DNA of 64,000 bases from Verrucomicrobiales bacterium (lineage in GTDB: Bacteria > Verrucomicrobiota > Verrucomicrobiia > Limisphaerales > J093), in assembly GCA_024233215.1 (NCBI GenBank), contig JACKPW010000009.1, positions 53,067 to 117,066 of the forward strand, in the 5' to 3' direction. Made by a program: the position numbers and the translations under genes. The notes beneath the pieces were generated by a model that ran no database searches, was not told the DNA's origin, and worked only from the letters and a program-made list of their open reading frames with translations. Positions 38,339-47,967 of this stretch are shown piece by piece (position 1 is the stretch's first letter; each line of letters starts with the position of its first letter).

Positions 38339-38431
38339 AGCGCGAAGGGAGCGGCGGGGTCAGTCCTGCAGCGGTTGGCGGCGCTCCCTCCGCCAACCGT
38401 GAGGAGCGACCCCGGAGCGGCCCACCGAATC

Positions 38432-39460
38432 ATGAAGGCATTTCAACTCCTGTCCCACGGTGATCCCGGCACGTTCGCCCTTCAGGATGTGCCCGAGCTT
38501 GCACCCGGCCCCGGGGAAGCGGTGGTGAAGGTGCGCGCCTGCGGGCTCAATCATCTCGACGTCTGGTTGGAACAAGGCGCCTTGCCGATGCCCGTAACTC
38601 TGCCGCGCACTCCGGGAAGTGAGGTTGCCGGAGAAGTACTCGCAGTCGGTGACGGTGGGGAGGCGGTGCGGGTCGGGGACCGCGTGGTGATCCAGTCGAA
38701 CCTCTTCTGCGGCGAGTGCGAATTCTGCCAGGTCGGGGAGGAGTCGCAGTGTCTGAAGGGCCGCCTGCTTGGCGTGGATTGCGACGGCGGCCTGGCGGAG
38801 GTGGTGAAGGTCCCGGTCGGGGCCCTGGTGCCGTTGCCGGCGGCGCTGGATTTCGAGGCAGGTGCGGCCCTCACCCTTGCCGCGAGTACGGCCATGCACA
38901 TGCTGACGAATCGCACCCAGGTTCGGGAAGGCGATTGGGTGCTGGTCATCGGTGCGGCGAGTGGCGTGGGTTCCGCGGCGATTCAGATTGCGAAGGGCCA
39001 CGGGGCGCGCGTGCTCACGACAGGTACCACGCTGGCGAAGCGGGAGTTTGGCCTGTCCCTGGGTGCGGAGTTTGCCGTGGACCCCGCCGATCCAGCATGG
39101 CCTTCGCAGGTGCGCCGGCACACCGGCAAGCACGGCGTGGATCTCGTCGTCGAACATGTCGGGGGGCGTGTGCTGGAGCAGGTCTTTGCCTGCCTTGCGC
39201 GCAACGGCACCGTGGTCACCTGCGGCGCCACCGCCGGGCGTCATCCGGGATTCGACCTCTGGCCGTTTTTTGTCAAACAGCAGCGGTTGATCGGCAGCTA
39301 TGGGCGCAACCGGGAGGATCTGCGTCGCACGCTGGAATGGGCAGAACAGGGCCGGCTCCGACCGGTAATCGACACCGTGTTTCCGTTGGCCGAGGCGGCG
39401 GAGGCATTCGCCCGGCTGCGCCGCGGCGAGATGCGCGGGAAGCTGCTGGTGAAGCCGTGA
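38432..39460 (+). CDS. Zinc-type medium-chain alcohol dehydrogenase / quinone oxidoreductase
   Basis: TPGSEVAGEVLAVG; structural-zinc CGECEFCQVGEESQC; NAD(P) fold VIGAASGVGSAAIQIAK. Confidence 0.9.
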   Translation: MKAFQLLSHGDPGTFALQDVPELAPGPGEAVVKVRACGLNHLDVWLEQGALPMPVTLPRTPGSEVAGEVLAVGDGGEAVRVGDRVVIQSNLFCGECEFCQVGEESQCLKGRLLGVDCDGGLAEVVKVPVGALVPLPAALDFEAGAALTLAASTAMHMLTNRTQVREGDWVLVIGAASGVGSAAIQIAKGHGARVLTTGTTLAKREFGLSLGAEFAVDPADPAWPSQVRRHTGKHGVDLVVEHVGGRVLEQVFACLARNGTVVTCGATAGRHPGFDLWPFFVKQQRLIGSYGRNREDLRRTLEWAEQGRLRPVIDTVFPLAEAAEAFARLRRGEMRGKLLVKP

Positions 39461-39891
39461 GACGAGGGCGAGCGGGCACGACGGGTTGAGCCGTGGCAAC
39501 TCAGTCGAATCGGGAATGATACGGATGTCTGGTATGTGGCCTGTCAGAGCCTGGAGCTGGAAAAGGGACGGCCTTCAGGATTAGGTTAGCCTTGCGGCCG
39601 GGAGGATAGGGCTCTGCAGGAGTGCAACCTGGGCGCCCGGCCGTCCGTGGAATGCAGGCCTGTATCCCGTCCCGGCCGGAGTCCCAAATCCCCCGTAGAT
39701 ATCGCGAATCTCCGCAAATCTGCCGGACGAGGCCGTCCGCCAGCACACGCGAGGGCGCGTATGCTCCCCAGGTAGTTGCGGCTTGTGCCGGCGGCTCCCG
39801 GACCTATCCTCCCGACCAGCAACACCCGTGGACGACCACAGCCGGAAACCGGCACCGGACGACACAACACGGCACCTGAAGGAGCATACTG

Positions 39892-42873
39892 ATGGCGCGA
39901 GACGAGGCGTATCGAAAAGCGGAACAGCGGATTGAAGCTGTGCGAACAGCAGAGGCGAAGGAACTCAATCTCAACGGGATGGGACTCGACGAGTTGCCGG
40001 AGTCGTTGGGTCGGCTCAAGCAGTTGGAATGGTTGAATCTCTCTGAGAACCGCCTGGCGAAGCTGCCTGAATCGCTGGGCCAGCTTACGCAGTTACGGTG
40101 GCTAGATCTCTCCGAGAACCGCCTGACGGAACTGCCGGAGTCGCTAGGCCAACTCGCGCAACTGCAGGTGCTTCATCTGTCCTTCAACCGCCTGACGGGA
40201 CTCCCTGCCTCGTTCAGCAAATTGAAGTCCGTTCATCAGCTTTCGCTCGGGGATAATAGCTTCTCGGACATGCCATGTGAGATCTTTGACTTAGTGCGAT
40301 TGGATTCGCTCACATTGGTCCGCAACCGACTAGCCACAATTCCGAGTGCCGTAAGTGGACTGACCGTTTTGCGGATTCTATATCTCGAAAAGAACCGGTT
40401 GATAGACTTGCCACCGTCGATGGCCCAACTTCGGTCTCTGAGAGATCTCCATCTCCACGACAATCCGCTGAACCCCGAACTGGGTGCCGCCTACAAAGAG
40501 GGCCTCGACGCCGTAAAACGCTACCTGCGCGCGAAGGCGGAAGCGCAGGTGGTGCTGAACGAGGCCAAGCTGATCCTGATCGGCGAGGGCGAAGTGGGAA
40601 AGAGTTGCCTGCTCGGCGCCTTGCGCGGCGATCCGTGGGAAGAGGACCGCTCCACCACGCACGGCATTGAGATCAAGCCGGTGAAGGTGAGCGATCCCGC
40701 CACCGGCACGGAGATCACCCTGAATGCCTGGGATTTTGGCGGACAGCGAGTTTATCGGCCCACGCACCAGTTGTTTTTCAGCGCCCCGGCGGTCTATCTG
40801 GTGGTGTGGAAACCTCGCGAAGGTCCGCAACAGGGCTTTGTGAAGGAGTGGATCAAGCTGGTGAAGCACCGCGAGCCGGACGCCAGAATCCTCGTCGTCG
40901 CCACCCACGGCGGCCCCAAGGAACGCCAACCGGACATTGACCGGCAGGACATTTGGGACCTTTTCGGCAAGGAGACGGTGATTCAGTTCTTCCATGTCGA
41001 AAGCAAGCCGCCCAAGTACGATAAGAAGAAACGTCGGTGGACGGGGGAACGCAGGGGAATCAAGCAGCTTAAGGACGTCATTGCTAAGTTGGCCGCCAGC
41101 CTTCCAGAGGTTGGCCGTTCAGTCCCCAAGCGCTGGCAGGAGGTGCGGGAGGCGTTGAAGCAGACCGGCGAGGCTTACCTGCCGCTGAATCGCGTCTTTG
41201 CGATTTGCACCGAGCACAAGATGACGGAGGAGGAGGCACAGGATTTCGTCCGCATTTCGCACCGGCTGGGTCACCTCATTCATTACGGGCACGATCCGCG
41301 ATTGAAAGACATGGTCATTCTCAAACCAGACTGGCTGGCGACGGCTGTGAGCTTCGTGCTGGATGACGAGGAGACGCGCAAGAAGCACGGGTTGGTGAAG
41401 TTCGCTCGTCTGGGGAAGCTCTGGAGCGATAGATCGCGCGGCGTGGAGTTCCGTTACCCTGCCAAAGTCCATCCCATCTTCGTCGCGTTGATGGAGCGGT
41501 TTGATCTTTCTTACCGCGTTGCAGGTTCGCCGTTGGGCGGGGAATCCGACCAAACCAGCCTGATTGCTCAACTGGTCCCTGACGTGCGGCCCGAGGTGGA
41601 CATTGCTCGCGAGTGGCCAGAGCAGCCCCAAGCAGGCGACGAGCAGCAAGTGCAGATGTGCCGCATCGTGGATGAGAAAGGACATTCCTGGACGGCTGAG
41701 GGATTGTTCTACCAACTCATCGTCCGTCTGCACAAATTCTCGCTAGGGTGTGAGGACTTCAACGCGAGCGTACACTGGCAGCGAGGTCTGATTCTGGACG
41801 ATGATTACAACGGACGGGCCTTGCTGGAGCATGTTGGCAACGATGTGCGGATCACTGTTCGCGCGGCGTATCCCGGCAATCTGCTGGCAGTGTTGACCCG
41901 TGAGGTAAAGTGGCTGGTAGAGAACTTCTGGGAAGGCTTGAAGTGTCAGGTAGTGGTCCCGTGCATTGAACCCTGCGGCAAGAAGCTGCCGGGAACCGGC
42001 TTGTTTGAGGTCCAGAAACTGATCGCTTTCAAGCGGCAGGGCATGACGCAGTTTCCCTGTAATGTGTCCGGCTGTGACCAAGCACATGACATTGATCGCC
42101 TGCTGCGCAACGCACCAGCGGCACGGCGTGATCCGCGGGAGGAGCTGCTGGCCGAGTTTGCCACGGTAAGGGTGGAACTGACCAAAGCGCGAGCCCAGAT
42201 GGCAGCGTTCCGTGGAGAGGCAGTATGTCGCTTCGACAAGCTGGACACTGGCACGCAGCGGATTCTGAGCAAAGTAGACGACGCGTTCGCCGGCTTGATG
42301 GCTGCCTACACGGACGAGGCCAAGGAAGGTCCACGTCTGTTCAGCTTCAAGCCGGTTGATCCGGGTTTCTTTGACCGGCCCAAGTGGATCAACCAGAAGT
42401 TCCGCCTGACCCTATGGTGCGAGCACAGCCGGCTGCCGTTGCCGGAACTGAATGGCAAAGGCAGCAAGGCGGGCGTGTATGAGCTGAACCTGCCCCGTGA
42501 GTGGTTTGAGCAGGCCGCGCCGTTCCTGAAGGTGCTCACCGGCACCCTGAGCCTTGTGCTGCCGGTGGCCGCGTCGGCCACGAAACTCGTGATGGATGAC
42601 ACCGCCTACAAGGGCCTGGAGAAGGAGTTGGACTTGGGCCAGAAGAGCCTCGACTCGGTGCTGAAGGGCGGAGGGAAGTCAGGCGCTTGGCTGGGTCGCA
42701 GCGACGCGCCGGACCTGGAACGTGGCGAAGCGATCCGGGCACAAGGGGCGGTCCTGCGGCAGTTGCACGCGTGGCTGAAGGAGAAGGACCCGAGCTTCGG
42801 CGGGTTGGTTCGCGTGATGAACAAGCGGCAGGAGTTCCTCTGGGTGCATCCGCAGTTTGAGGCGGAGTACTAA
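39892..42873 (+). CDS. Bacterial ROCO protein: about 7.5 LRRs, Roc (Ras-of-complex) GTPase, COR domain, plus about 250-aa unassigned C-terminal module
   Basis: GGAG Shine-Dalgarno 7 nt before ATG 39892. 23-aa LRRs (LxLSxNRLxxLPESLGQLxQL) at aa 25-195. P-loop LILIGEGEVGKS (K237). G3 WDFGGQ. COR-like region to about aa 740 with CxxxC...CxxxxC. TAA stop. Visibly lower G+C than flanks. Confidence 0.9.
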   Translation: MARDEAYRKAEQRIEAVRTAEAKELNLNGMGLDELPESLGRLKQLEWLNLSENRLAKLPESLGQLTQLRWLDLSENRLTELPESLGQLAQLQVLHLSFNRLTGLPASFSKLKSVHQLSLGDNSFSDMPCEIFDLVRLDSLTLVRNRLATIPSAVSGLTVLRILYLEKNRLIDLPPSMAQLRSLRDLHLHDNPLNPELGAAYKEGLDAVKRYLRAKAEAQVVLNEAKLILIGEGEVGKSCLLGALRGDPWEEDRSTTHGIEIKPVKVSDPATGTEITLNAWDFGGQRVYRPTHQLFFSAPAVYLVVWKPREGPQQGFVKEWIKLVKHREPDARILVVATHGGPKERQPDIDRQDIWDLFGKETVIQFFHVESKPPKYDKKKRRWTGERRGIKQLKDVIAKLAASLPEVGRSVPKRWQEVREALKQTGEAYLPLNRVFAICTEHKMTEEEAQDFVRISHRLGHLIHYGHDPRLKDMVILKPDWLATAVSFVLDDEETRKKHGLVKFARLGKLWSDRSRGVEFRYPAKVHPIFVALMERFDLSYRVAGSPLGGESDQTSLIAQLVPDVRPEVDIAREWPEQPQAGDEQQVQMCRIVDEKGHSWTAEGLFYQLIVRLHKFSLGCEDFNASVHWQRGLILDDDYNGRALLEHVGNDVRITVRAAYPGNLLAVLTREVKWLVENFWEGLKCQVVVPCIEPCGKKLPGTGLFEVQKLIAFKRQGMTQFPCNVSGCDQAHDIDRLLRNAPAARRDPREELLAEFATVRVELTKARAQMAAFRGEAVCRFDKLDTGTQRILSKVDDAFAGLMAAYTDEAKEGPRLFSFKPVDPGFFDRPKWINQKFRLTLWCEHSRLPLPELNGKGSKAGVYELNLPREWFEQAAPFLKVLTGTLSLVLPVAASATKLVMDDTAYKGLEKELDLGQKSLDSVLKGGGKSGAWLGRSDAPDLERGEAIRAQGAVLRQLHAWLKEKDPSFGGLVRVMNKRQEFLWVHPQFEAEY

Positions 42874-42880
42874 GTTCCAG

Positions 42881-42909
42881 CCCCGCTGGCATCCCTCCGG
42901 GATGCGGGG
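42881..42909 (+). terminator. Stem-loop immediately after the ROCO stop (GCATCCC-TCC-GGGATGC inner stem, CCCC/GGGG outer stem); no U-tail
   Basis: Read directly, 8 nt after TAA. The terminator role is uncertain because the tail is not T-rich. Confidence 0.35.
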
Positions 42910-43324
42910 TCCATTCCGACCGGTTTCCGGTGGTATCGCTCGTCCCTCGCTCGACCACCGGCTAATGGCTTTGAACCCTCCGGGTTCGGGGAACCCCAGG
43001 CTGGTATGGCAACGGGCTTTCGGCCCTTCTCAGCGTCGAGGCCGCAGCCAATGCGACCGACCCAACGGCCTTACGCTTGACTCGACGCCCATGCCCACTG
43101 GAGCTCGGCTGGCCTGGGGTGTTGCCGGGCCACGGAGACTGCGCCCCGCCGGGGCTTACGGCTTCATGAACGTCGCATGGCCCGGCCTCGAAATGCCGCG
43201 CCATACTCTTGCTCCCTGCATGGCGTGGCACGCTCCGGCTCCGAACGGTGGTCGAACAGTCTGGTCACACGGGCGGACGTTTGCGAGCGTCTGCCGGGTG
43301 CGGGGGGCAGGACGCAGCAAAGGA

Positions 43325-45457
43325 ATGACTGGTCGAATGAACACAACGCAGGTCCTGGGATTCAACGCGGAACGAACCAGGTTGGGATTGGCGATGGCGT
43401 GGATCGTTTGCGGAATGGTCGGAGGCTTGGGTGCCGCAACGTCGGCGGGCGAAGCCTGGCCCGGGGAGCAGTGGACCACGGCAACTCCAGCGGACGTTGG
43501 GCTGTCAGCCGAGCGGTTGCAGGAGGCCCGCGACTACGCCGTGTCAGGTGAGGGCTCAGGTTGCGTTGTTCGCCACGGTAAGCTGGTCTTGCAGTGGGGA
43601 CCGTCCGACCAGCTTTACGACCTGAAATCGACCTCGAAATCCATCGGCAGCACGGCGCTCTGGCTGGCGCTGATGGACGGCAAAGTCAGCCTGGATGATC
43701 TGGCGAAGGATCATCACCCCGCCTTTGGCGTGCCACCGGAAAGCAATGCCGATACCGGTTGGCTGGACCGGATCACGTTGCGAATGCTCGCCGGCCAGAC
43801 CGCCGGCTTCGCGAAACCCGGCGGTTTCGAACCGCTACTCTTCACGCCTGGCACGCGCTGGCACTACAGCGACGGCGGCCCCAACTGGCTCGCCGAATGC
43901 CTTACCCGCGCCTACGGTCGCGATCTTGACGATGTCCTGTCCGACCGGGTGTTCACGCCGATTGGCATCACGCGTCGCGATCTGCGCTGGCGCGCGAATG
44001 CCTATCGACCGCATCAGATTGACGGCGTTGAACGGCGCGAGTTCGGGTCGGGCTTCCACGCGAACGTGTTGGCGATGGCCCGGATCGGTCTGCTTTACCT
44101 GCGTGAGGGGAAGTGGCGGGATCGGCAATTGCTGCCGCGGGAATACGTGGTCGCCATTCCGCGAATGGAGTCGGGCCTGGCGGAACTGCCGGTGGATGAG
44201 CCGGGGAACTACGGGCGGGCGTCGGCGCATTACCACTGGCTTTGGTGGAACAACGCGGACGGCTCGATCCCGCACCTTCCCCGCGACGCGTTTTGGAGCT
44301 GGGGTCTCTATGACAGTTTGATTGTGGTGGTGCCGAGCCTGGACCTGGTGGCGGCCCGGGCCGGGAAATCCTGGCCGCGTGAGCGTGGTGCCGATCACTA
44401 CGCGGTGCTGCAGGGCTTTCTCACGCCGCTCGGTCGCGCGGTTGCAGAAAGTGAAGGCGCTTCGTCGACCGAGGCATCTCGGGTCTCCCCGAGCGGCGCG
44501 CCGGCCAGTCCGGTCATCCGGACCATCGAATGGGCGCCGGCGGCGGAGATCATCCGAAAGGCGGCTGGCAGTGACAACTGGCCAATGACGTGGGCGGACG
44601 ACGATCAACTCTACACGGCCTACGGTGATGGTCGCGGTTTTGAGCCGTTTGTGCCGGAGAAGCTCAGTCTCGGGTTGGCGCGGGTGAGCGGAATGCCGGA
44701 TGGGTTCATCGGAATGAACCTGCGGGCTCCCTCGCTGGAGGCGTTGGGAGATGGCGCGAAGGGACGCAAGGCCAGCGGTCTGTTGTCGGTCCGGGGCGTG
44801 CTTTATCTGTGGGCACGCAATGCCGGGAATTCCCAACTCGCGTGGTCGCGTGATCACGGGGCCACCTGGACCTGGGCGGATTGGAAGTTCACGGAGAGTT
44901 TCGGATGCCCGACGTTTCTCAACCACGGACGTGACGACGCCGGGGCCCGCGACGGTTTCGTCTACCTCTTTTCGCCGGACAGCGAGGACGCCTACACGCG
45001 GGCGGACCGCTTTGTGCTGGGCCGGGCTCCGGTGGATCGATTGAGGGAACGGGCGCTGTGGGAGTTCTTCGTGAGCTTGGATCAGACCGGCGAACCGGTG
45101 TGGAGCCAGGATGTGGGCGAACGCGGCGCCGTGTTCGAGCGAGCGGGCGGGTGTTACCGTTGCGGGGTGAGCTACCATCCGGGGTTGCGGCGTTATCTCT
45201 GGTGCCAGACGGGCCCGGGCGAAGCGCCGCGGTTTGCCGGCGGGTTCGGCGTGTTTGATGCCCCGGAGCCGTGGGGGCCTTGGACCGAGGTGTTCTGGAC
45301 AGACCAGTGGGATGTCGGCCCGGGGGAAACCCAGAGTCTGCCGGTCAAATGGATGGACGCGGACAATCGGGCCATTCACCTGGTCTTCTCGGGGGATGAT
45401 GCGTTCTCGGTGCGGCAGGGGAGAATCGTGCTGCGGGATGACGGTGCTGCGAGGTGA
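43325..45457 (+). CDS. Secreted serine hydrolase (beta-lactamase/transpeptidase-like, class C fold) fused to a C-terminal beta-propeller-like domain
   Basis: S-x-x-K motif in LYDLKSTSKSIGSTALW, and YSDGGPNW. C-terminal 330 aa rich in W/G/D repeats (DNWPMTWADDDQLYTAYGDG...). Start ATG 43325 or 43337; the ORF-track start 42857 is rejected. Confidence 0.8.
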   Translation: MTGRMNTTQVLGFNAERTRLGLAMAWIVCGMVGGLGAATSAGEAWPGEQWTTATPADVGLSAERLQEARDYAVSGEGSGCVVRHGKLVLQWGPSDQLYDLKSTSKSIGSTALWLALMDGKVSLDDLAKDHHPAFGVPPESNADTGWLDRITLRMLAGQTAGFAKPGGFEPLLFTPGTRWHYSDGGPNWLAECLTRAYGRDLDDVLSDRVFTPIGITRRDLRWRANAYRPHQIDGVERREFGSGFHANVLAMARIGLLYLREGKWRDRQLLPREYVVAIPRMESGLAELPVDEPGNYGRASAHYHWLWWNNADGSIPHLPRDAFWSWGLYDSLIVVVPSLDLVAARAGKSWPRERGADHYAVLQGFLTPLGRAVAESEGASSTEASRVSPSGAPASPVIRTIEWAPAAEIIRKAAGSDNWPMTWADDDQLYTAYGDGRGFEPFVPEKLSLGLARVSGMPDGFIGMNLRAPSLEALGDGAKGRKASGLLSVRGVLYLWARNAGNSQLAWSRDHGATWTWADWKFTESFGCPTFLNHGRDDAGARDGFVYLFSPDSEDAYTRADRFVLGRAPVDRLRERALWEFFVSLDQTGEPVWSQDVGERGAVFERAGGCYRCGVSYHPGLRRYLWCQTGPGEAPRFAGGFGVFDAPEPWGPWTEVFWTDQWDVGPGETQSLPVKWMDADNRAIHLVFSGDDAFSVRQGRIVLRDDGAAR

Positions 45458-46330: not shown

Positions 46331-46597
46331 ATGACTCCCATCGAACAGGAACTGCTGGCGGTGCTGCGCGAACTGGATCGGGCTGTGACCCGGCTTCGGG
46401 AAGGCGATCACGAGGTGGCGCTGACGCCGTTATTCACCCGGTTGGATGGCCTCGCAGCGACGCTCCCCCCGACCGCCCCGCGCGATTTGCGCCATTACCT
46501 CGGCATGAAGAGCTACGAGAAGGCGCGCCGATGGCTGGAGCGGGAGGAGACCCGTTGTGCGGGAACGGGGTCTGACTGGGAGGGCGTTGGCGCATGA
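46331..46597 (+). CDS. Small hypothetical protein (88 aa) translationally coupled to mnmE
   Basis: Its stop TGA overlaps the mnmE ATG (ATGA at 46594-46597). MTPIEQELLAVLRELDRAVTRLREGD...HYLGMKSYEKARRWLE; helical; no family recognised. Confidence 0.6.
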   Translation: MTPIEQELLAVLRELDRAVTRLREGDHEVALTPLFTRLDGLAATLPPTAPRDLRHYLGMKSYEKARRWLEREETRCAGTGSDWEGVGA

Positions 46598-47967
46598 ACC
46601 CGGAGGACACCATTGCCGCGATCTGCACGCCGCTCGGGGAGGGGGGGCTGGCGGTGATCCGCGTTTCGGGTTCGCACAGCCTCGCCGTGACCGACCGGTG
46701 TTTCGAGCCGCGGGGCACTTTGGCTCGCAAGCCGTCCGCGGCCGCGACCCACACGGTTCATTACGGCCGGATACACCATCAGGGACGACTGGCGGACGAG
46801 GTGTTGCTGACGGTCTTGCGCGCGCCCCACAGCTACACCTGCGAGGATACCGTGGAGGTTTCCTGCCACGGCGGATTGCTCACGGCGCGGCTGGTTCTGG
46901 AGGCCCTGCTCGCGGCGGGCGCGCGGCCGGCCGAACCGGGGGAATTCACGCGACGCGCCTTTCTTAACGGCCGGCTCGATCTCGCCCAGGCCGAGGCCGT
47001 GGCGGATGTGATTCACGCCCGTACGGAACTGGCCCTGACGGCCGCGCAGGAACAACTGGCGGGGTCGCTTTCGAAACGGATTCGGCAACTTCGGCAGGAC
47101 CTGTTGCAGGTGCTGGCGCATGTCGAGGCGCACATTGATTTCCCGGACGAGGACATTGCGCCGGACACCCGGGAGGCATTGCTCGGTCGGTTGCGGTCGG
47201 CGGAGGCGTTCATGGACGAGTTGCTCCGAACGGCGCGGGAAGGCCGGCTCTTGCGCCGCGGCATCCGGGCCGCGTTGATTGGCCGGACCAATGCGGGAAA
47301 ATCCAGCCTCTTGAACGCGTTGCTCGGACGGGATCGCGCCATTGTGACCGCGACACCGGGCACGACCCGGGACACCATCGAGGAAACCGCGAGCATCCGC
47401 GGGCTGCCGGTGGTCTTGATCGATACCGCCGGCCTGCGGGAAGCCGGCGACGCCATCGAGGAGGAGGGAATCCGCCGCAGCCAGAGGGCGCTCGCCGAGG
47501 CGGAGTTGGTCCTGCACGTGCTGGACGGATCGGAACCCCGGGACGTCCGGGACGAGGGGTGGATGGAACGACTGGCGGACCGGCCGAGGATCGTGGTCCT
47601 GAACAAGTCGGATCTGCCGGGGCGTGCGGGGCTTGCTGCCCAGGCGGGGTTGCGGGTGGTGGAAACCTCCTGCTTGACCAGGGTCGGCATCGAGACCCTG
47701 AAGGACGCCATCAGGGAGACCGTCTGGTCCGGGGCCATCCGCGCGGAGATGTTGGAGGTGACGATCAACGCCCGACATCAGGATGCGTTGCGACGCGCAC
47801 GGGAAGCTGTCGAATTGACCCTGGCGGCGTTGGAGCGGGGGGAATCGCTGGAACTGGTGGCCGTGGATTTGCATGCGGCGGTCAGGGCCGTCGGGGAGAT
47901 CGTCGGGGAGACCACGACGGACGACCTCTTGGATTCCATCTTCAGCCAGTTCTGCATCGGCAAGTGA
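46594..47967 (+). CDS. mnmE: tRNA modification GTPase MnmE (TrmE)
   Basis: DTIAAICTPLGEGGLAVIRVSG; G domain IGRTNAGKSSLLNAL, DTAGLRE, NKSD; C-terminal FCIGK. Confidence 0.95.
   Translation: MNPEDTIAAICTPLGEGGLAVIRVSGSHSLAVTDRCFEPRGTLARKPSAAATHTVHYGRIHHQGRLADEVLLTVLRAPHSYTCEDTVEVSCHGGLLTARLVLEALLAAGARPAEPGEFTRRAFLNGRLDLAQAEAVADVIHARTELALTAAQEQLAGSLSKRIRQLRQDLLQVLAHVEAHIDFPDEDIAPDTREALLGRLRSAEAFMDELLRTAREGRLLRRGIRAALIGRTNAGKSSLLNALLGRDRAIVTATPGTTRDTIEETASIRGLPVVLIDTAGLREAGDAIEEEGIRRSQRALAEAELVLHVLDGSEPRDVRDEGWMERLADRPRIVVLNKSDLPGRAGLAAQAGLRVVETSCLTRVGIETLKDAIRETVWSGAIRAEMLEVTINARHQDALRRAREAVELTLAALERGESLELVAVDLHAAVRAVGEIVGETTTDDLLDSIFSQFCIGK

What the first reader, a model, noticed from the sequence alone, without database searches (positions are those of the whole stretch)
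42112..42870. Unassigned ~250-aa C-terminal module of the ROCO protein with a buried hydrophobic helix
After the COR Cys cluster the protein continues with the following segments:
- a predicted coiled coil (REELLAEFATVRVELTKARAQMAAF...)
- a conserved-looking block PRLFSFKPVDPGFFDRPKWINQKFRLTLWCEHSRLPLPEL
- a roughly 25-residue hydrophobic segment APFLKVLTGTLSLVLPVAASATKLV (nt about 42514-42588)
- a charged helical tail ending FLWVHPQFEAEY
I cannot assign this to any domain family from memory. A hydrophobic hairpin or helix downstream of an NTPase switch is what one would expect of a membrane-targeting effector released on activation.
Basis: inference. Interest (0 to 1): 0.6.

Follow-up and report, generated by a model that had tools for sequence, protein, structure and literature searches.

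The report
Unnamed output domain of bacterial Roco GTPase
The last 250 residues of this bacterial relative of the Parkinson's protein LRRK2 form a widespread, strongly conserved domain with no name and no recognisable fold. It sits where related proteins carry cell-killing domains, and its hydrophobic helix is part of a helical hairpin rather than a plain membrane anchor.

Summary
ORF 39892-42873 (+) encodes a 993-aa LRR-Roc-COR-A-COR-B protein. Residues 741-993 match nothing in Pfam, NCBIfam, PADLOC, PHROGs or PDB sequences.

The tail is a real domain:
- It has more than 1,150 clusters at 90% identity and 615 representatives at 50% identity, across at least seven phyla.
- Its core is about 80% identical among close homologues, as conserved as the GTPase (79%). 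The LRRs are only 43% identical.
- AlphaFold2 (pLDDT 83) gives a coiled-coil hairpin and a five-stranded alpha/beta core. The core is interrupted by a roughly 60-residue helical hairpin and a disordered linker. Fold searches matched only the hairpin.

The hydrophobic segment is the first helix of that hairpin. It is borderline for a membrane helix (KD 1.63; family median 1.58) and has a narrow cationic stripe. Both hairpin helices reach membrane-helix hydrophobicity in only 2 of 233 relatives.

Cys843-Glu844 are invariant. Arg815 is nearly invariant.

The module occupies the effector slot of the LRR-AP-GTPase-COR "counter-invader" proteins predicted by Kaur et al. 2021. That study lists a homologue without naming this domain. 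My best reading is a latent, probably membrane-directed effector (0.4). An enzymatic effector or a regulatory module remain open.

The scan has flagged this domain before on other DNA (e1-2770796, e1-2696671). Nothing has been tested experimentally.

The parts
39892..42873 (+). Whole gene: 993-aa LRR-Roc-COR-A-COR-B protein with the C-terminal module (P0001)
   Evidence: ORF list, translation, Pfam. It is the single copy in the 7.3-Mb genome. GC is 0.586-0.606 against 0.646-0.683 in the flanks.
39892..40536 (+). N-terminal leucine-rich repeats (res 1-215), the fast-evolving presumed sensor
   Evidence: Pfam LRR_8/LRR_14/LRR_4. Mean identity to 86 close homologues is 43.5%, against 79% for Roc.
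40567..40908 (+). Roc GTPase domain (res 226-339); P-loop GEGEVGKS, G3 WDFGGQ
   Evidence: Pfam PF08477 E=5.2e-22. Aligns to LRRK2 and M. barkeri Roc structures. G4 reads THGG where LRRK2 has THLD.
41125..41577 (+). COR-A (res 412-562)
   Evidence: Pfam PF16095 E=6.4e-35
41695..42108 (+). COR-B (res 602-739), including the Cys cluster C691...C723/C728 (nt 41962-42075)
   Evidence: Pfam PF25497 E=3.2e-23. C691, C723 and C728 are invariant in alignment A3.
42133..42306 (+). Module part 1: two amphipathic helices forming a coiled-coil hairpin (about res 748-805)
   Evidence: AF2 helices 8-42 and 46-66 of the module, and 748-772 and 786-805 in the full-length model. Heptad-like hydrophobic stripes. 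Least conserved part of the module, 0.24-0.35 column identity. It travels with the module in non-Roco proteins.
42328..42495 (+). Module part 2: first half of the alpha/beta core (res 813-868): GPRLF strand, RLTLWCEH strand with invariant C843-E844 (nt 42418-42423), GVY strand
   Evidence: AF2 strands 817-821, 834-843 and 862-868, pLDDT up to 97. P814, L841, C843, E844 and P849 are 100% conserved; R815 94%, H845 88%, Y863 92% among 88 representatives.
42496..42591 (+).
   Evidence: AF2 helix 129-160 in the module model, 869-896 in the full-length model. Maximum KD19 is 1.63; family median 1.58, range 0.69-2.29. Broad hydrophobic face plus a narrow K/R/S/P stripe, with W871 and P877 conserved.
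42598..42669 (+). Module part 4: helix B (res 903-926), the amphipathic partner of helix A in the hairpin
   Evidence: AF2 helix 163-189 in the module model, 903-926 in the full-length model. Heptad stripe W/Y166-I169-L173-L175-L180-L183. TM-grade in only 2 of 233 relatives.
42670..42744 (+). Module part 5: disordered, length-variable linker (res 927-951)
   Evidence: pLDDT below 50 in both models. The linker-containing stretch (module positions 186-213) is 17-82 residues long in the family.
42751..42870 (+). Module part 6: second half of the alpha/beta core (res 954-993): LRQLH helix, DPSFGGL, two strands, WVHP, C-terminal Tyr
   Evidence: AF2 helix 954-965 and strands 973-976 and 982-985, pLDDT 89-97 in the module model. 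R956 90%, D966 95%, W984 99%, H986 92%, Y993 99% conserved.

Best explanation
Residues 741-993 are a self-contained, previously unnamed domain. It acts as the output (effector-slot) module of a single-polypeptide sensor-switch-effector protein: variable LRRs sense, Roc-COR switches, and the module executes.

The module is built from three parts:
- an N-terminal coiled-coil hairpin;
- a compact, very conserved alpha/beta core carrying invariant Cys843-Glu844 and nearly invariant Arg815;
- a roughly 60-residue helical hairpin inserted into that core, whose first helix is the hydrophobic segment.

Proposed mechanism, step by step:
1. In the resting state the broad hydrophobic face of helix A is covered by the three amphipathic helices (inferred from the sequence patterns).
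2. A nucleotide-dependent rearrangement of Roc-COR, as shown for the C. tepidum Roco protein, frees the module (inferred by analogy).
3. The hairpin then engages the cytoplasmic membrane, either to perturb it directly or to bring the conserved core to a membrane-proximal target (inferred).
4. The outcome is growth arrest or death of the cell in a conflict or immunity setting (inferred).

What is shown: domain boundaries, conservation, architecture, distribution and the absence of known relatives. What is inferred: effector role, membrane engagement and outcome.
For: A real, portable domain:
- 1,153 clusters at 90% identity and 615 representatives at 50% identity.
- 55 of 60 representatives with a long N-terminus have COR-B upstream. 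The exceptions carry the module behind other regions: P0124, the P0140/P0164 family, and P0191, which has Roc and COR-A but no detected COR-B.

Sensor-switch-effector conservation pattern:
- LRR 43%, Roc 79%, COR-A 64%, COR-B 67%, coiled coil 53%, core 80% identity.

Effector slot:
- Kaur et al. 2021 describe LRR-AP-GTPase-COR proteins with at least 24 different C-terminal effector domains.
- They list homologue P0018 (RJO63533.1) as 'LRR-repeats+AP-GTPase+COR' without naming the tail.
- The N-terminal 140 residues of the P0140 family recur in front of PIN nuclease, NB-ARC and WD40 regions. That is the pattern of an adaptor that pairs with effectors.

Stand-alone accessory gene:
- One copy in the genome, and present in 2 of 41 related genomes.
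- Lower GC than the flanks.
- No conserved neighbour across 17 loci. The neighbours are housekeeping or unknown genes.
- Found in Cyanobacteria, Verrucomicrobiota, Acidobacteriota, Planctomycetota, Methylococcaceae, Heliomicrobium and Chlorobaculum.

Membrane lean:
- Helix A stays hydrophobic even in the most distant copy.
- The K/R stripe is conserved across the family.
- The whole hairpin is TM-grade in P0164 and P0187 (KD 2.1-2.3).
- No representative lacks the hairpin.
- P0140-family proteins also carry an N-terminal hydrophobic stretch.
- 'COR+TM+TM' is the second most frequent of the six C-terminal labels I counted in the published table.

The same secondary-structure topology comes out of the isolated and the full-length AF2 models.
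Against: - No experiment exists on any family member.
- Helix A is only borderline hydrophobic and falls short of surface-seeking or TM classes on family averages. Kaur et al. assigned no TM label to P0018.
- The invariant Cys-Glu and the conserved Arg, His, Asp and Tyr in a core as conserved as the GTPase fit an active or ligand-binding site better than a simple membrane-insertion device.
- Some relatives additionally carry an N-terminal TIR domain (P0128, P0057). In those the module may not be the effector.
- The gene does not sit in recognisable defence islands, and PADLOC has no model for it.
- Burial of helix A in the model could not be measured, because no coordinates are returned.
Confidence: 0.4

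Rival explanations
1. The module is an enzymatic effector with a new fold. The invariant Cys843-Glu844, together with Arg815, His845, Tyr863, Arg956, Asp966 and His986, forms a catalytic or metal site. The helical hairpin is a regulatory lid or a membrane tether that places the enzyme near a lipid or envelope substrate.
For: - C843 and E844 are 100% conserved. R815 is 94%, H845 88%, Y863 92%, R956 90%, D966 95% and H986 92% conserved among 88 representatives at 50% clustering.
- The core is 80% identical across phyla, equal to the GTPase.
- Cys-Glu and Arg815 survive in the most distant copy.
- The core has the highest pLDDT of the module, 89-97.
Against: - No Pfam, NCBIfam or PDB sequence or profile hit and no fold match. 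No catalytic class can be named.
- H845 and H986 are lost in the distant G003 copy, so a four-ligand zinc site or a Cys-His dyad is not universal.
- Whether the conserved residues cluster in space could not be checked.
Confidence: 0.25
2. The module is not an effector. It is a regulatory, oligomerisation or membrane-localisation domain intrinsic to this Roco clade, comparable to the C-terminal scaffolding domains of LRRK2. The protein would then be an ordinary signalling GTPase whose output is a partner protein.
For: - The module always travels with this Roc-COR clade and diverges in step with it, down to a copy that scores only E=5e-17 against the module profile.
- Relatives with an added N-terminal TIR or AAA_35 keep the module.
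- It starts with a coiled coil.
- Roco GTPases are regulated by dimerisation (PMC11052575).
- The neighbours are housekeeping genes rather than defence genes.
Against: - COR-B already provides the dimer interface in characterised Roco proteins (established knowledge of CtRoco).
- The module also works without Roc-COR, behind unrelated N-termini.
- There is no conserved partner gene.
- Patchy, cross-phylum distribution and atypical GC fit an accessory conflict gene better than core signalling.
- Invariant polar residues are unusual for a pure scaffold.
Confidence: 0.2
3. The module is a second sensor: a ligand- or nucleotide-binding domain that feeds into Roc-COR. The LRRs, or added domains such as TIR, would then provide the output.
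For: - A conserved pocket-like set of polar residues.
- TIR-bearing relatives exist.
Against: - Sensors in such proteins are usually the fastest-evolving part. Here the LRRs are (43%), while the module core is the slowest (80%).
- Most family members have no other candidate output domain.
Confidence: 0.1

Closest known systems
Prokaryotic LRR-AP-GTPase(Roc)-COR 'counter-invader' proteins predicted by Kaur, Iyer, Burroughs and Aravind 2021 (eLife 10:e70394, PMC8195603)
   Same: Same architecture: fast-evolving N-terminal LRRs, Roc plus COR, and a C-terminal slot. A 78%-identical homologue of the module (by module identity; P0018 = RJO63533.1) is in their source table.
   Different: Their table gives that homologue no C-terminal domain, so this module is not among the named effectors (TIR, DrHyd, caspase, GT4, FGS, EADs, TM+TM). 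The immune function of the whole class is a prediction and has not been tested.
CtRoco, the Chlorobaculum tepidum Roco protein (PDB 6HLU, 8R4B/C/D, 3DPU)
   Same: [quoted passage not shown] P0001 residues 37-536 align to it (E about 1e-37).
   Different: The module profile does not hit the full-length CtRoco chain 8r4b_A at E<=10. Its tail is shorter and flexible. The Roc G4 motif differs from that of characterised Roc domains: THGG here, where the alignment to LRRK2 Roc shows THLD.
LRRK2 / DAPK1 (eukaryotic Roco kinases)
   Same: A Roc-COR switch with the output domain placed C-terminal to COR. The Roc domain aligns to LRRK2 Roc (E about 1e-11).
   Different: The output here is not a kinase. 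No kinase, WD40 or death domain was found.
Latent helical membrane effectors gated by NTPase switches or proteolysis (plant CC-NLR resistosome helix, MLKL four-helix bundle; bacterial EACC1/Pepco, PMC12642450)
   Same: The logic may be shared: a hydrophobic element kept shielded until an upstream switch fires. This is inference only.
   Different: No sequence or fold similarity was detected. EACC1 and Pepco are small, protease-activated and beta-rich. This module has a conserved alpha/beta core with invariant polar residues and no associated protease.

Membership tests
Roco proteins (Roc-COR tandem GTPases) | Roc (Ras-of-complex) G domain | tested here: met
   Pfam PF08477 E=5.2e-22, residues 226-339. 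P-loop GEGEVGKS and G3 WDFGGQ are read in the sequence. It aligns to LRRK2 and M. barkeri Roc structures.
Roco proteins (Roc-COR tandem GTPases) | COR-A and COR-B directly following Roc | tested here: met
   PF16095 E=6.4e-35 (412-562) and PF25497 E=3.2e-23 (602-739).
Roco proteins (Roc-COR tandem GTPases) | Canonical guanine-specificity G4 motif ([NT]KxD, or THxD in LRRK2) | tested here: inconclusive
   The alignment to LRRK2 Roc puts THGG opposite THLD. T338 and H339 are nearly invariant in the clade.
Prokaryotic LRR-AP-GTPase-COR counter-invader proteins (Kaur et al. 2021) | Rapidly evolving N-terminal LRRs fused to AP-GTPase plus COR | tested here: met
   LRR 43.5% against Roc 78.9% mean identity among close homologues; Pfam architecture.
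Prokaryotic LRR-AP-GTPase-COR counter-invader proteins (Kaur et al. 2021) | C-terminal position occupied by a variable effector-type domain | tested here: inconclusive
   The slot is filled by this unnamed module. Homologue RJO63533.1 is listed as 'LRR-repeats+AP-GTPase+COR' only. An effector nature is suggested by its portability but no activity is known.
Prokaryotic LRR-AP-GTPase-COR counter-invader proteins (Kaur et al. 2021) | Protective (anti-invader) function | not testable with these tools
   No PADLOC model. No hits in phage or plasmid collections. The neighbours are not defence genes.
'COR+TM+TM' Roco proteins (C-terminal two-TM hairpin; label in Kaur et al. source data) | Two transmembrane-grade helices after COR | tested here: not met
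   In this protein helix A has a maximum KD19 of 1.63. The family median for helix B is about 0.0. Only P0164 and P0187 of 233 relatives reach TM grade in both helices.
Known membrane or pore effectors of defence systems (gasdermin, EACC1, Pepco, SLATT and the like) | Sequence or fold similarity to the family | tested here: inconclusive
C-terminal region of CtRoco | Detectable sequence homology | tested here: inconclusive
   Profile A2 against PDB sequences, which include full-length 8r4b_A (1107 aa): no match at E<=10. No fold comparison is possible because that region is unresolved.

The most novel reading that the evidence does not exclude
The module is a new class of GTPase-gated cell-death effector with a new fold. 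A conserved alpha/beta core holds a helical hairpin in a latent state. When Roc-COR switches, the hairpin is released and inserts into the membrane. This would be a bacterial functional counterpart of the helix-release mechanisms of plant CC-NLRs and MLKL, and it would give bacterial LRRK2 homologues their first defined output.
Probability: 0.25. Interest if true: 0.75.

Novelty: new variant of a known kind. Interest (0 to 1): 0.5.

Why it matters
Bacterial Roco proteins are the structural models for LRRK2, yet none has a known output or biological role. This module is one of the most common C-terminal ends of bacterial LRR-Roc-COR proteins (more than 1,100 clusters at 90% identity) and is as conserved as the GTPase. 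It has no Pfam entry, no structure and no name.

Defining it would give a testable output for a bacterial Roco switch. It would add a domain family to the catalogue of candidate immune effectors. It would also show whether a GTPase, rather than a STAND ATPase or a protease, can gate a membrane-directed or enzymatic death domain.

If the module turns out to be a regulatory appendage, the finding is an ordinary annotation gap.

Tried and rejected
Structure and feature searches that gave nothing usable:
- Foldseek against PDB and BFVD: no hit with E<=0.001. The recurring SNX5 PX rows have probability about 0.1 and rmsd 12-14 A on re-alignment.
- ESM Atlas, twice: no usable hit.
- Profile against PDB sequences: nothing below E=0.15.

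Self-association and context:
- Complex prediction with two copies of the module: no verdict (score 0.00; the partner's own fold was uncertain in at least one run). This is not evidence either way.
- A metagenome scan with the P0140 N-terminal stretch returned only two PIN-type loci, neither with the module.
- Plasmid and phage collections: no match.
- Promoter and terminator scan: uninformative.

Motif ideas from memory, none supported:
- LRAT/PLAAT 'NCEHF' against WCEHS here: no Pfam LRAT hit, no NlpC/P60 fold match, and a different residue order.
- HEPN Rx4-6H: the spacing here is R-x2-H.
- PD-(D/E)xK: no ExK on strand 3.
- Deaminase [HC]xE...PCxxC: absent.
- ART R-S-E: no STS or ExE.

Other ideas set aside:
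- A constitutive TM anchor: rejected on hydrophobicity and on the absence of a TM label for P0018 in Kaur et al..
Full report
**1. What is there**

The window carries one long ORF, 39892-42873 on the + strand, encoding 993 residues (P0001). Pfam assigns the following:
- leucine-rich repeats in residues 1-215
- a Roc GTPase domain in 226-339 (E=5e-22)
- COR-A in 412-562 (E=6e-35)
- COR-B in 602-739 (E=3e-23)

Residues 741-993 (nt 42112-42870) receive no family at E<=1 in Pfam. They also get none in NCBIfam, PADLOC or PHROGs. They have no relative among PDB sequences, whether searched as a single sequence or as a profile.

The hydrophobic one is residues 876-900, nt 42517-42591.

**2. It is a real and large domain family**

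- A word-indexed search with residues 741-993 found 1,153 clusters (90% identity level) at E<=1e-3. The best 120 are 65-86% identical over the whole module.
- An exhaustive HMMER scan of 1.84 billion representatives (50% level) found 615 proteins at E<=1e-3, of which 96 are at E<=1e-30. The match almost always runs to the C-terminal end of the protein.
- Among 88 well-covered representatives, P814, L841, C843, E844 and P849 are 100% conserved.
- In the same set, G813, R815, L816, F817, H845, G861, Y863, W871, P877, L955, R956, D966, L972, W984, H986 and the terminal Y993 are 86-99% conserved.
- A very distant copy in a genome of the same genus (G003; E=5e-17 to the profile; also LRR-Roc-COR) still keeps PRL, L-x-CE, the Pro of helix A, the hydrophobic helix and the final Trp. 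It has lost H845 and H986.

**3. Predicted anatomy**

AlphaFold2 on a 45-sequence alignment gave mean pLDDT 82.6 and pTM 0.61. A full-length model from 38 homologues (pLDDT 82.9) reproduced the same elements. In order, they are:
- two amphipathic helices forming a hairpin (748-772, 786-805)
- three strands (817-821, 834-843, 862-868)
- a long helix A (869-896/900)
- a long helix B (903-926)
- a disordered linker (927-951, pLDDT below 50)
- a helix (954-965), two strands (973-976, 982-985) and a short C-terminal helix

So a compact alpha/beta core, which has the highest confidence (89-97), is interrupted by a roughly 60-residue helical hairpin plus a variable linker.

No representative lacks the hairpin. 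The linker-containing stretch (module positions 186-213) varies from 17 to 82 residues.

**4. How hydrophobic is helix A**

- Its best 19-residue Kyte-Doolittle window scores 1.63, at the usual threshold.
- Over 233 relatives the median is 1.58, with a range of 0.69-2.29.
- Family-averaged profiles show a broad hydrophobic face and a narrow polar stripe at about 3.5-residue spacing: K/R134, K/R140, 144, S/R/K147, P151, 155, K158 in module numbering.
- Helix B and the two N-terminal helices are ordinary amphipathic heptad helices.
- This pattern fits a helix shielded by three amphipathic helices in a soluble state. It equally fits an interfacial membrane helix. It does not look like a constitutive transmembrane anchor.
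- Independently, Kaur et al. 2021 label many Roco proteins 'COR+TM+TM' but gave no TM label to the 78%-identical homologue P0018.
- On the other side, in two relatives (P0164, P0187) both hairpin helices have become TM-grade (KD 2.1-2.3). The hairpin can therefore live in lipid.
- I could not measure burial in the models, because coordinates are not returned.

**5. Fold comparisons**

- Foldseek against PDB and BFVD found nothing at E<=0.001.

The core was therefore barely tested. I say only that no known fold was detected.

**6. Context and distribution**

- The gene is single-copy in its 7.3-Mb genome.
- The module is present in only 2 of 41 related genomes searched.
- GC is 0.586-0.606 over the first 2.6 kb of the gene (windows 39500-42499) and rises towards its 3' end, against 0.646-0.683 in the flanking windows.
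- Its neighbours are an alcohol dehydrogenase, a TPR protein, a beta-lactamase/DUF4185 protein and MnmE.
- Twenty-four loci from species-representative genomes lie in Cyanobacteria, Verrucomicrobiota, Acidobacteriota, Planctomycetota, Methylococcaceae, Heliomicrobium and Chlorobaculum.
- Across 17 of these loci no neighbouring gene is conserved, apart from synteny among four related Acidobacteriota.
- Sampled neighbours are Lon, a molybdopterin oxidoreductase, PrpD, an enolase-like protein or unknowns.
- No copy is on the plasmids or phages searched.

This is a horizontally spread, self-sufficient, one-gene unit. It is not embedded in obvious defence islands.

**7. Which role does the module play**

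Among 119 close homologues the mean identity to P0001 is as follows:

| Region | Mean identity |
|---|---|
| LRRs | 43% |
| Roc | 79% |
| COR-A | 64% |
| COR-B | 67% |
| Coiled coil | 53% |
| Module core | 80% |

A diversifying repeat sensor, a conserved switch and a conserved C-terminal domain make up the layout of NLR-like proteins.

Kaur, Iyer, Burroughs and Aravind (2021) describe exactly this class. It has LRRs, an AP-GTPase (Roc), COR, and a C-terminal position filled by at least 24 different domains, including TIR, DrHyd, caspase, trypsin, FGS, GT4 and EADs. They predict it to be a counter-invader system (PMC8195603). Their source table lists P0018 (RJO63533.1, locus C4523_20060) as 'LRR-repeats+AP-GTPase+COR' with nothing after COR. 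The family was seen, but the module was not delineated.

The module is also portable:
- Of 60 representatives with at least 120 residues upstream, my COR-B model found the domain in 55, and Pfam finds it in one of the other five, P0148.
- P0124 carries the module after 600 residues with no Pfam hit.
- P0191 has Roc and COR-A but no detected COR-B before the module.
- A small Anaerolineales family (P0140, P0164 and relatives) carries it after a 140-residue N-terminal domain, with or without a DUF4062 insertion.
- That same N-terminal domain heads roughly 1,420-residue proteins with HTH plus PIN nuclease domains, an NB-ARC STAND protein and a WD40 protein.

The last point is the pattern expected of an adaptor shared between a switch protein and its effectors. 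It places the module in the same slot as a PIN nuclease. The one metagenome scan returned only PIN-type loci.

**8. Mechanism**

I commit to this reading: the module is the output domain of a single-protein sensor-switch-effector, and it is probably directed at the membrane.

Shown:
- domain limits
- conservation
- topology
- portability
- stand-alone, horizontally spread nature

Inferred:
- Roc-COR undergoes a nucleotide-driven rearrangement like the GTP-driven monomerisation and opening of CtRoco (PMC11052575).
- This rearrangement unmasks the module.
- Helix A then engages the membrane.
- The result is growth arrest or death.

Confidence is 0.4.

The strongest rival (0.25) is that the conserved core is an enzyme or ligand-binding site built around Cys843-Glu844, with the hairpin as a lid or tether. 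The two readings can combine into a membrane-tethered enzyme.

A regulatory, oligomerisation or localisation role (0.2) is kept alive by two observations. The module co-diverges with this Roc-COR clade. Relatives with an added N-terminal TIR or AAA_35 retain it.

A sensor role (0.1) is unlikely, because the module core is the slowest-evolving part of the protein.

**9. Relation to known things and novelty**

The protein is a bona fide Roco protein and a member of the published, still untested, LRR-AP-GTPase-COR class.

The module itself has no name, no Pfam model and no solved or matched structure. It shows no detectable similarity to the roughly 150-residue C-terminal region of CtRoco.

I rate it a new variant of a known kind: an undescribed domain in a known slot.

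Earlier notes of this scan flagged the same kind of tail in other genomes (e1-2770796, e1-2696671). One called it 'probably zinc-binding'. My data neither confirm nor exclude that, and they show that two of the candidate His ligands are not universal.

**10. Limits**

- No experimental data exist.
- No coordinates were available, so burial of helix A and clustering of the conserved residues remain unmeasured.
- The homodimer job gave no verdict.
- The core's fold was not tested in isolation.

Noticed in passing
window 40903-40914 (res 338-341): The Roc G4 position reads THGG where LRRK2 Roc has THLD in the phmmer alignment. T338 and H339 are nearly invariant in this clade. The Asp that normally confers guanine specificity is missing at that position, so nucleotide specificity may differ.
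   Followed up: partly
window 39500-42500 against the flanks: The Roco gene has GC 0.586-0.606, against 0.646-0.683 on both sides. This fits recent horizontal acquisition of a single gene between housekeeping genes (ADH 38375-39460, MnmE 46594-47967).
   Followed up: partly
L025:10001-10141 (Chlorobaculum thiosulfatiphilum): A 47-residue remnant of the module's C-terminal end (87% identical) with no intact ORF. It lies directly after three genes that by eye look like a vWA protein, a PP2C-like phosphatase and a 654-aa kinase-like protein. It is probably a decayed Roco gene beside a TerY-P-like triad.
   Followed up: no
P0140 res 1-140; P0284-P0300; L029:9914-14176, L030:7530-11795: An unnamed 140-residue N-terminal domain (Anaerolineales) with a hydrophobic Gly-rich stretch heads proteins ending in this module, in HTH plus PIN nuclease domains, in NB-ARC or in WD40 repeats. 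This looks like an adaptor (EAD-like) family without a Pfam model.
   Followed up: partly
P0124 (857 aa): Here the module (55% identical) follows about 600 residues with no Pfam or PDB sequence hit. By eye that region contains a kinase-like D-x-H-x-x-N stretch.
   Followed up: no
L002:1762-5152, L004:7657-10762, L005:7470-10768: In three MAG loci the Roco gene appears as two or three overlapping ORFs. This could be frameshifts, assembly errors or pseudogenes.
   Followed up: no
window 42857-45457: The listed 866-aa downstream ORF overlaps the Roco stop codon. Its first 150 or so residues look non-coding, and a signal-like start (MTGRMNTTQ...) lies near nt 43325. The product is a beta-lactamase-family plus DUF4185 protein unrelated to the finding.
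   Followed up: no
window 42868-42870 (Y993): The very last residue, Tyr, is 99% conserved. In many relatives it is the C-terminus itself, while others add a Pro-rich tail (YxPxPPxIP). A conserved terminal residue hints at a docking or autoinhibitory role for the tail.
   Followed up: no
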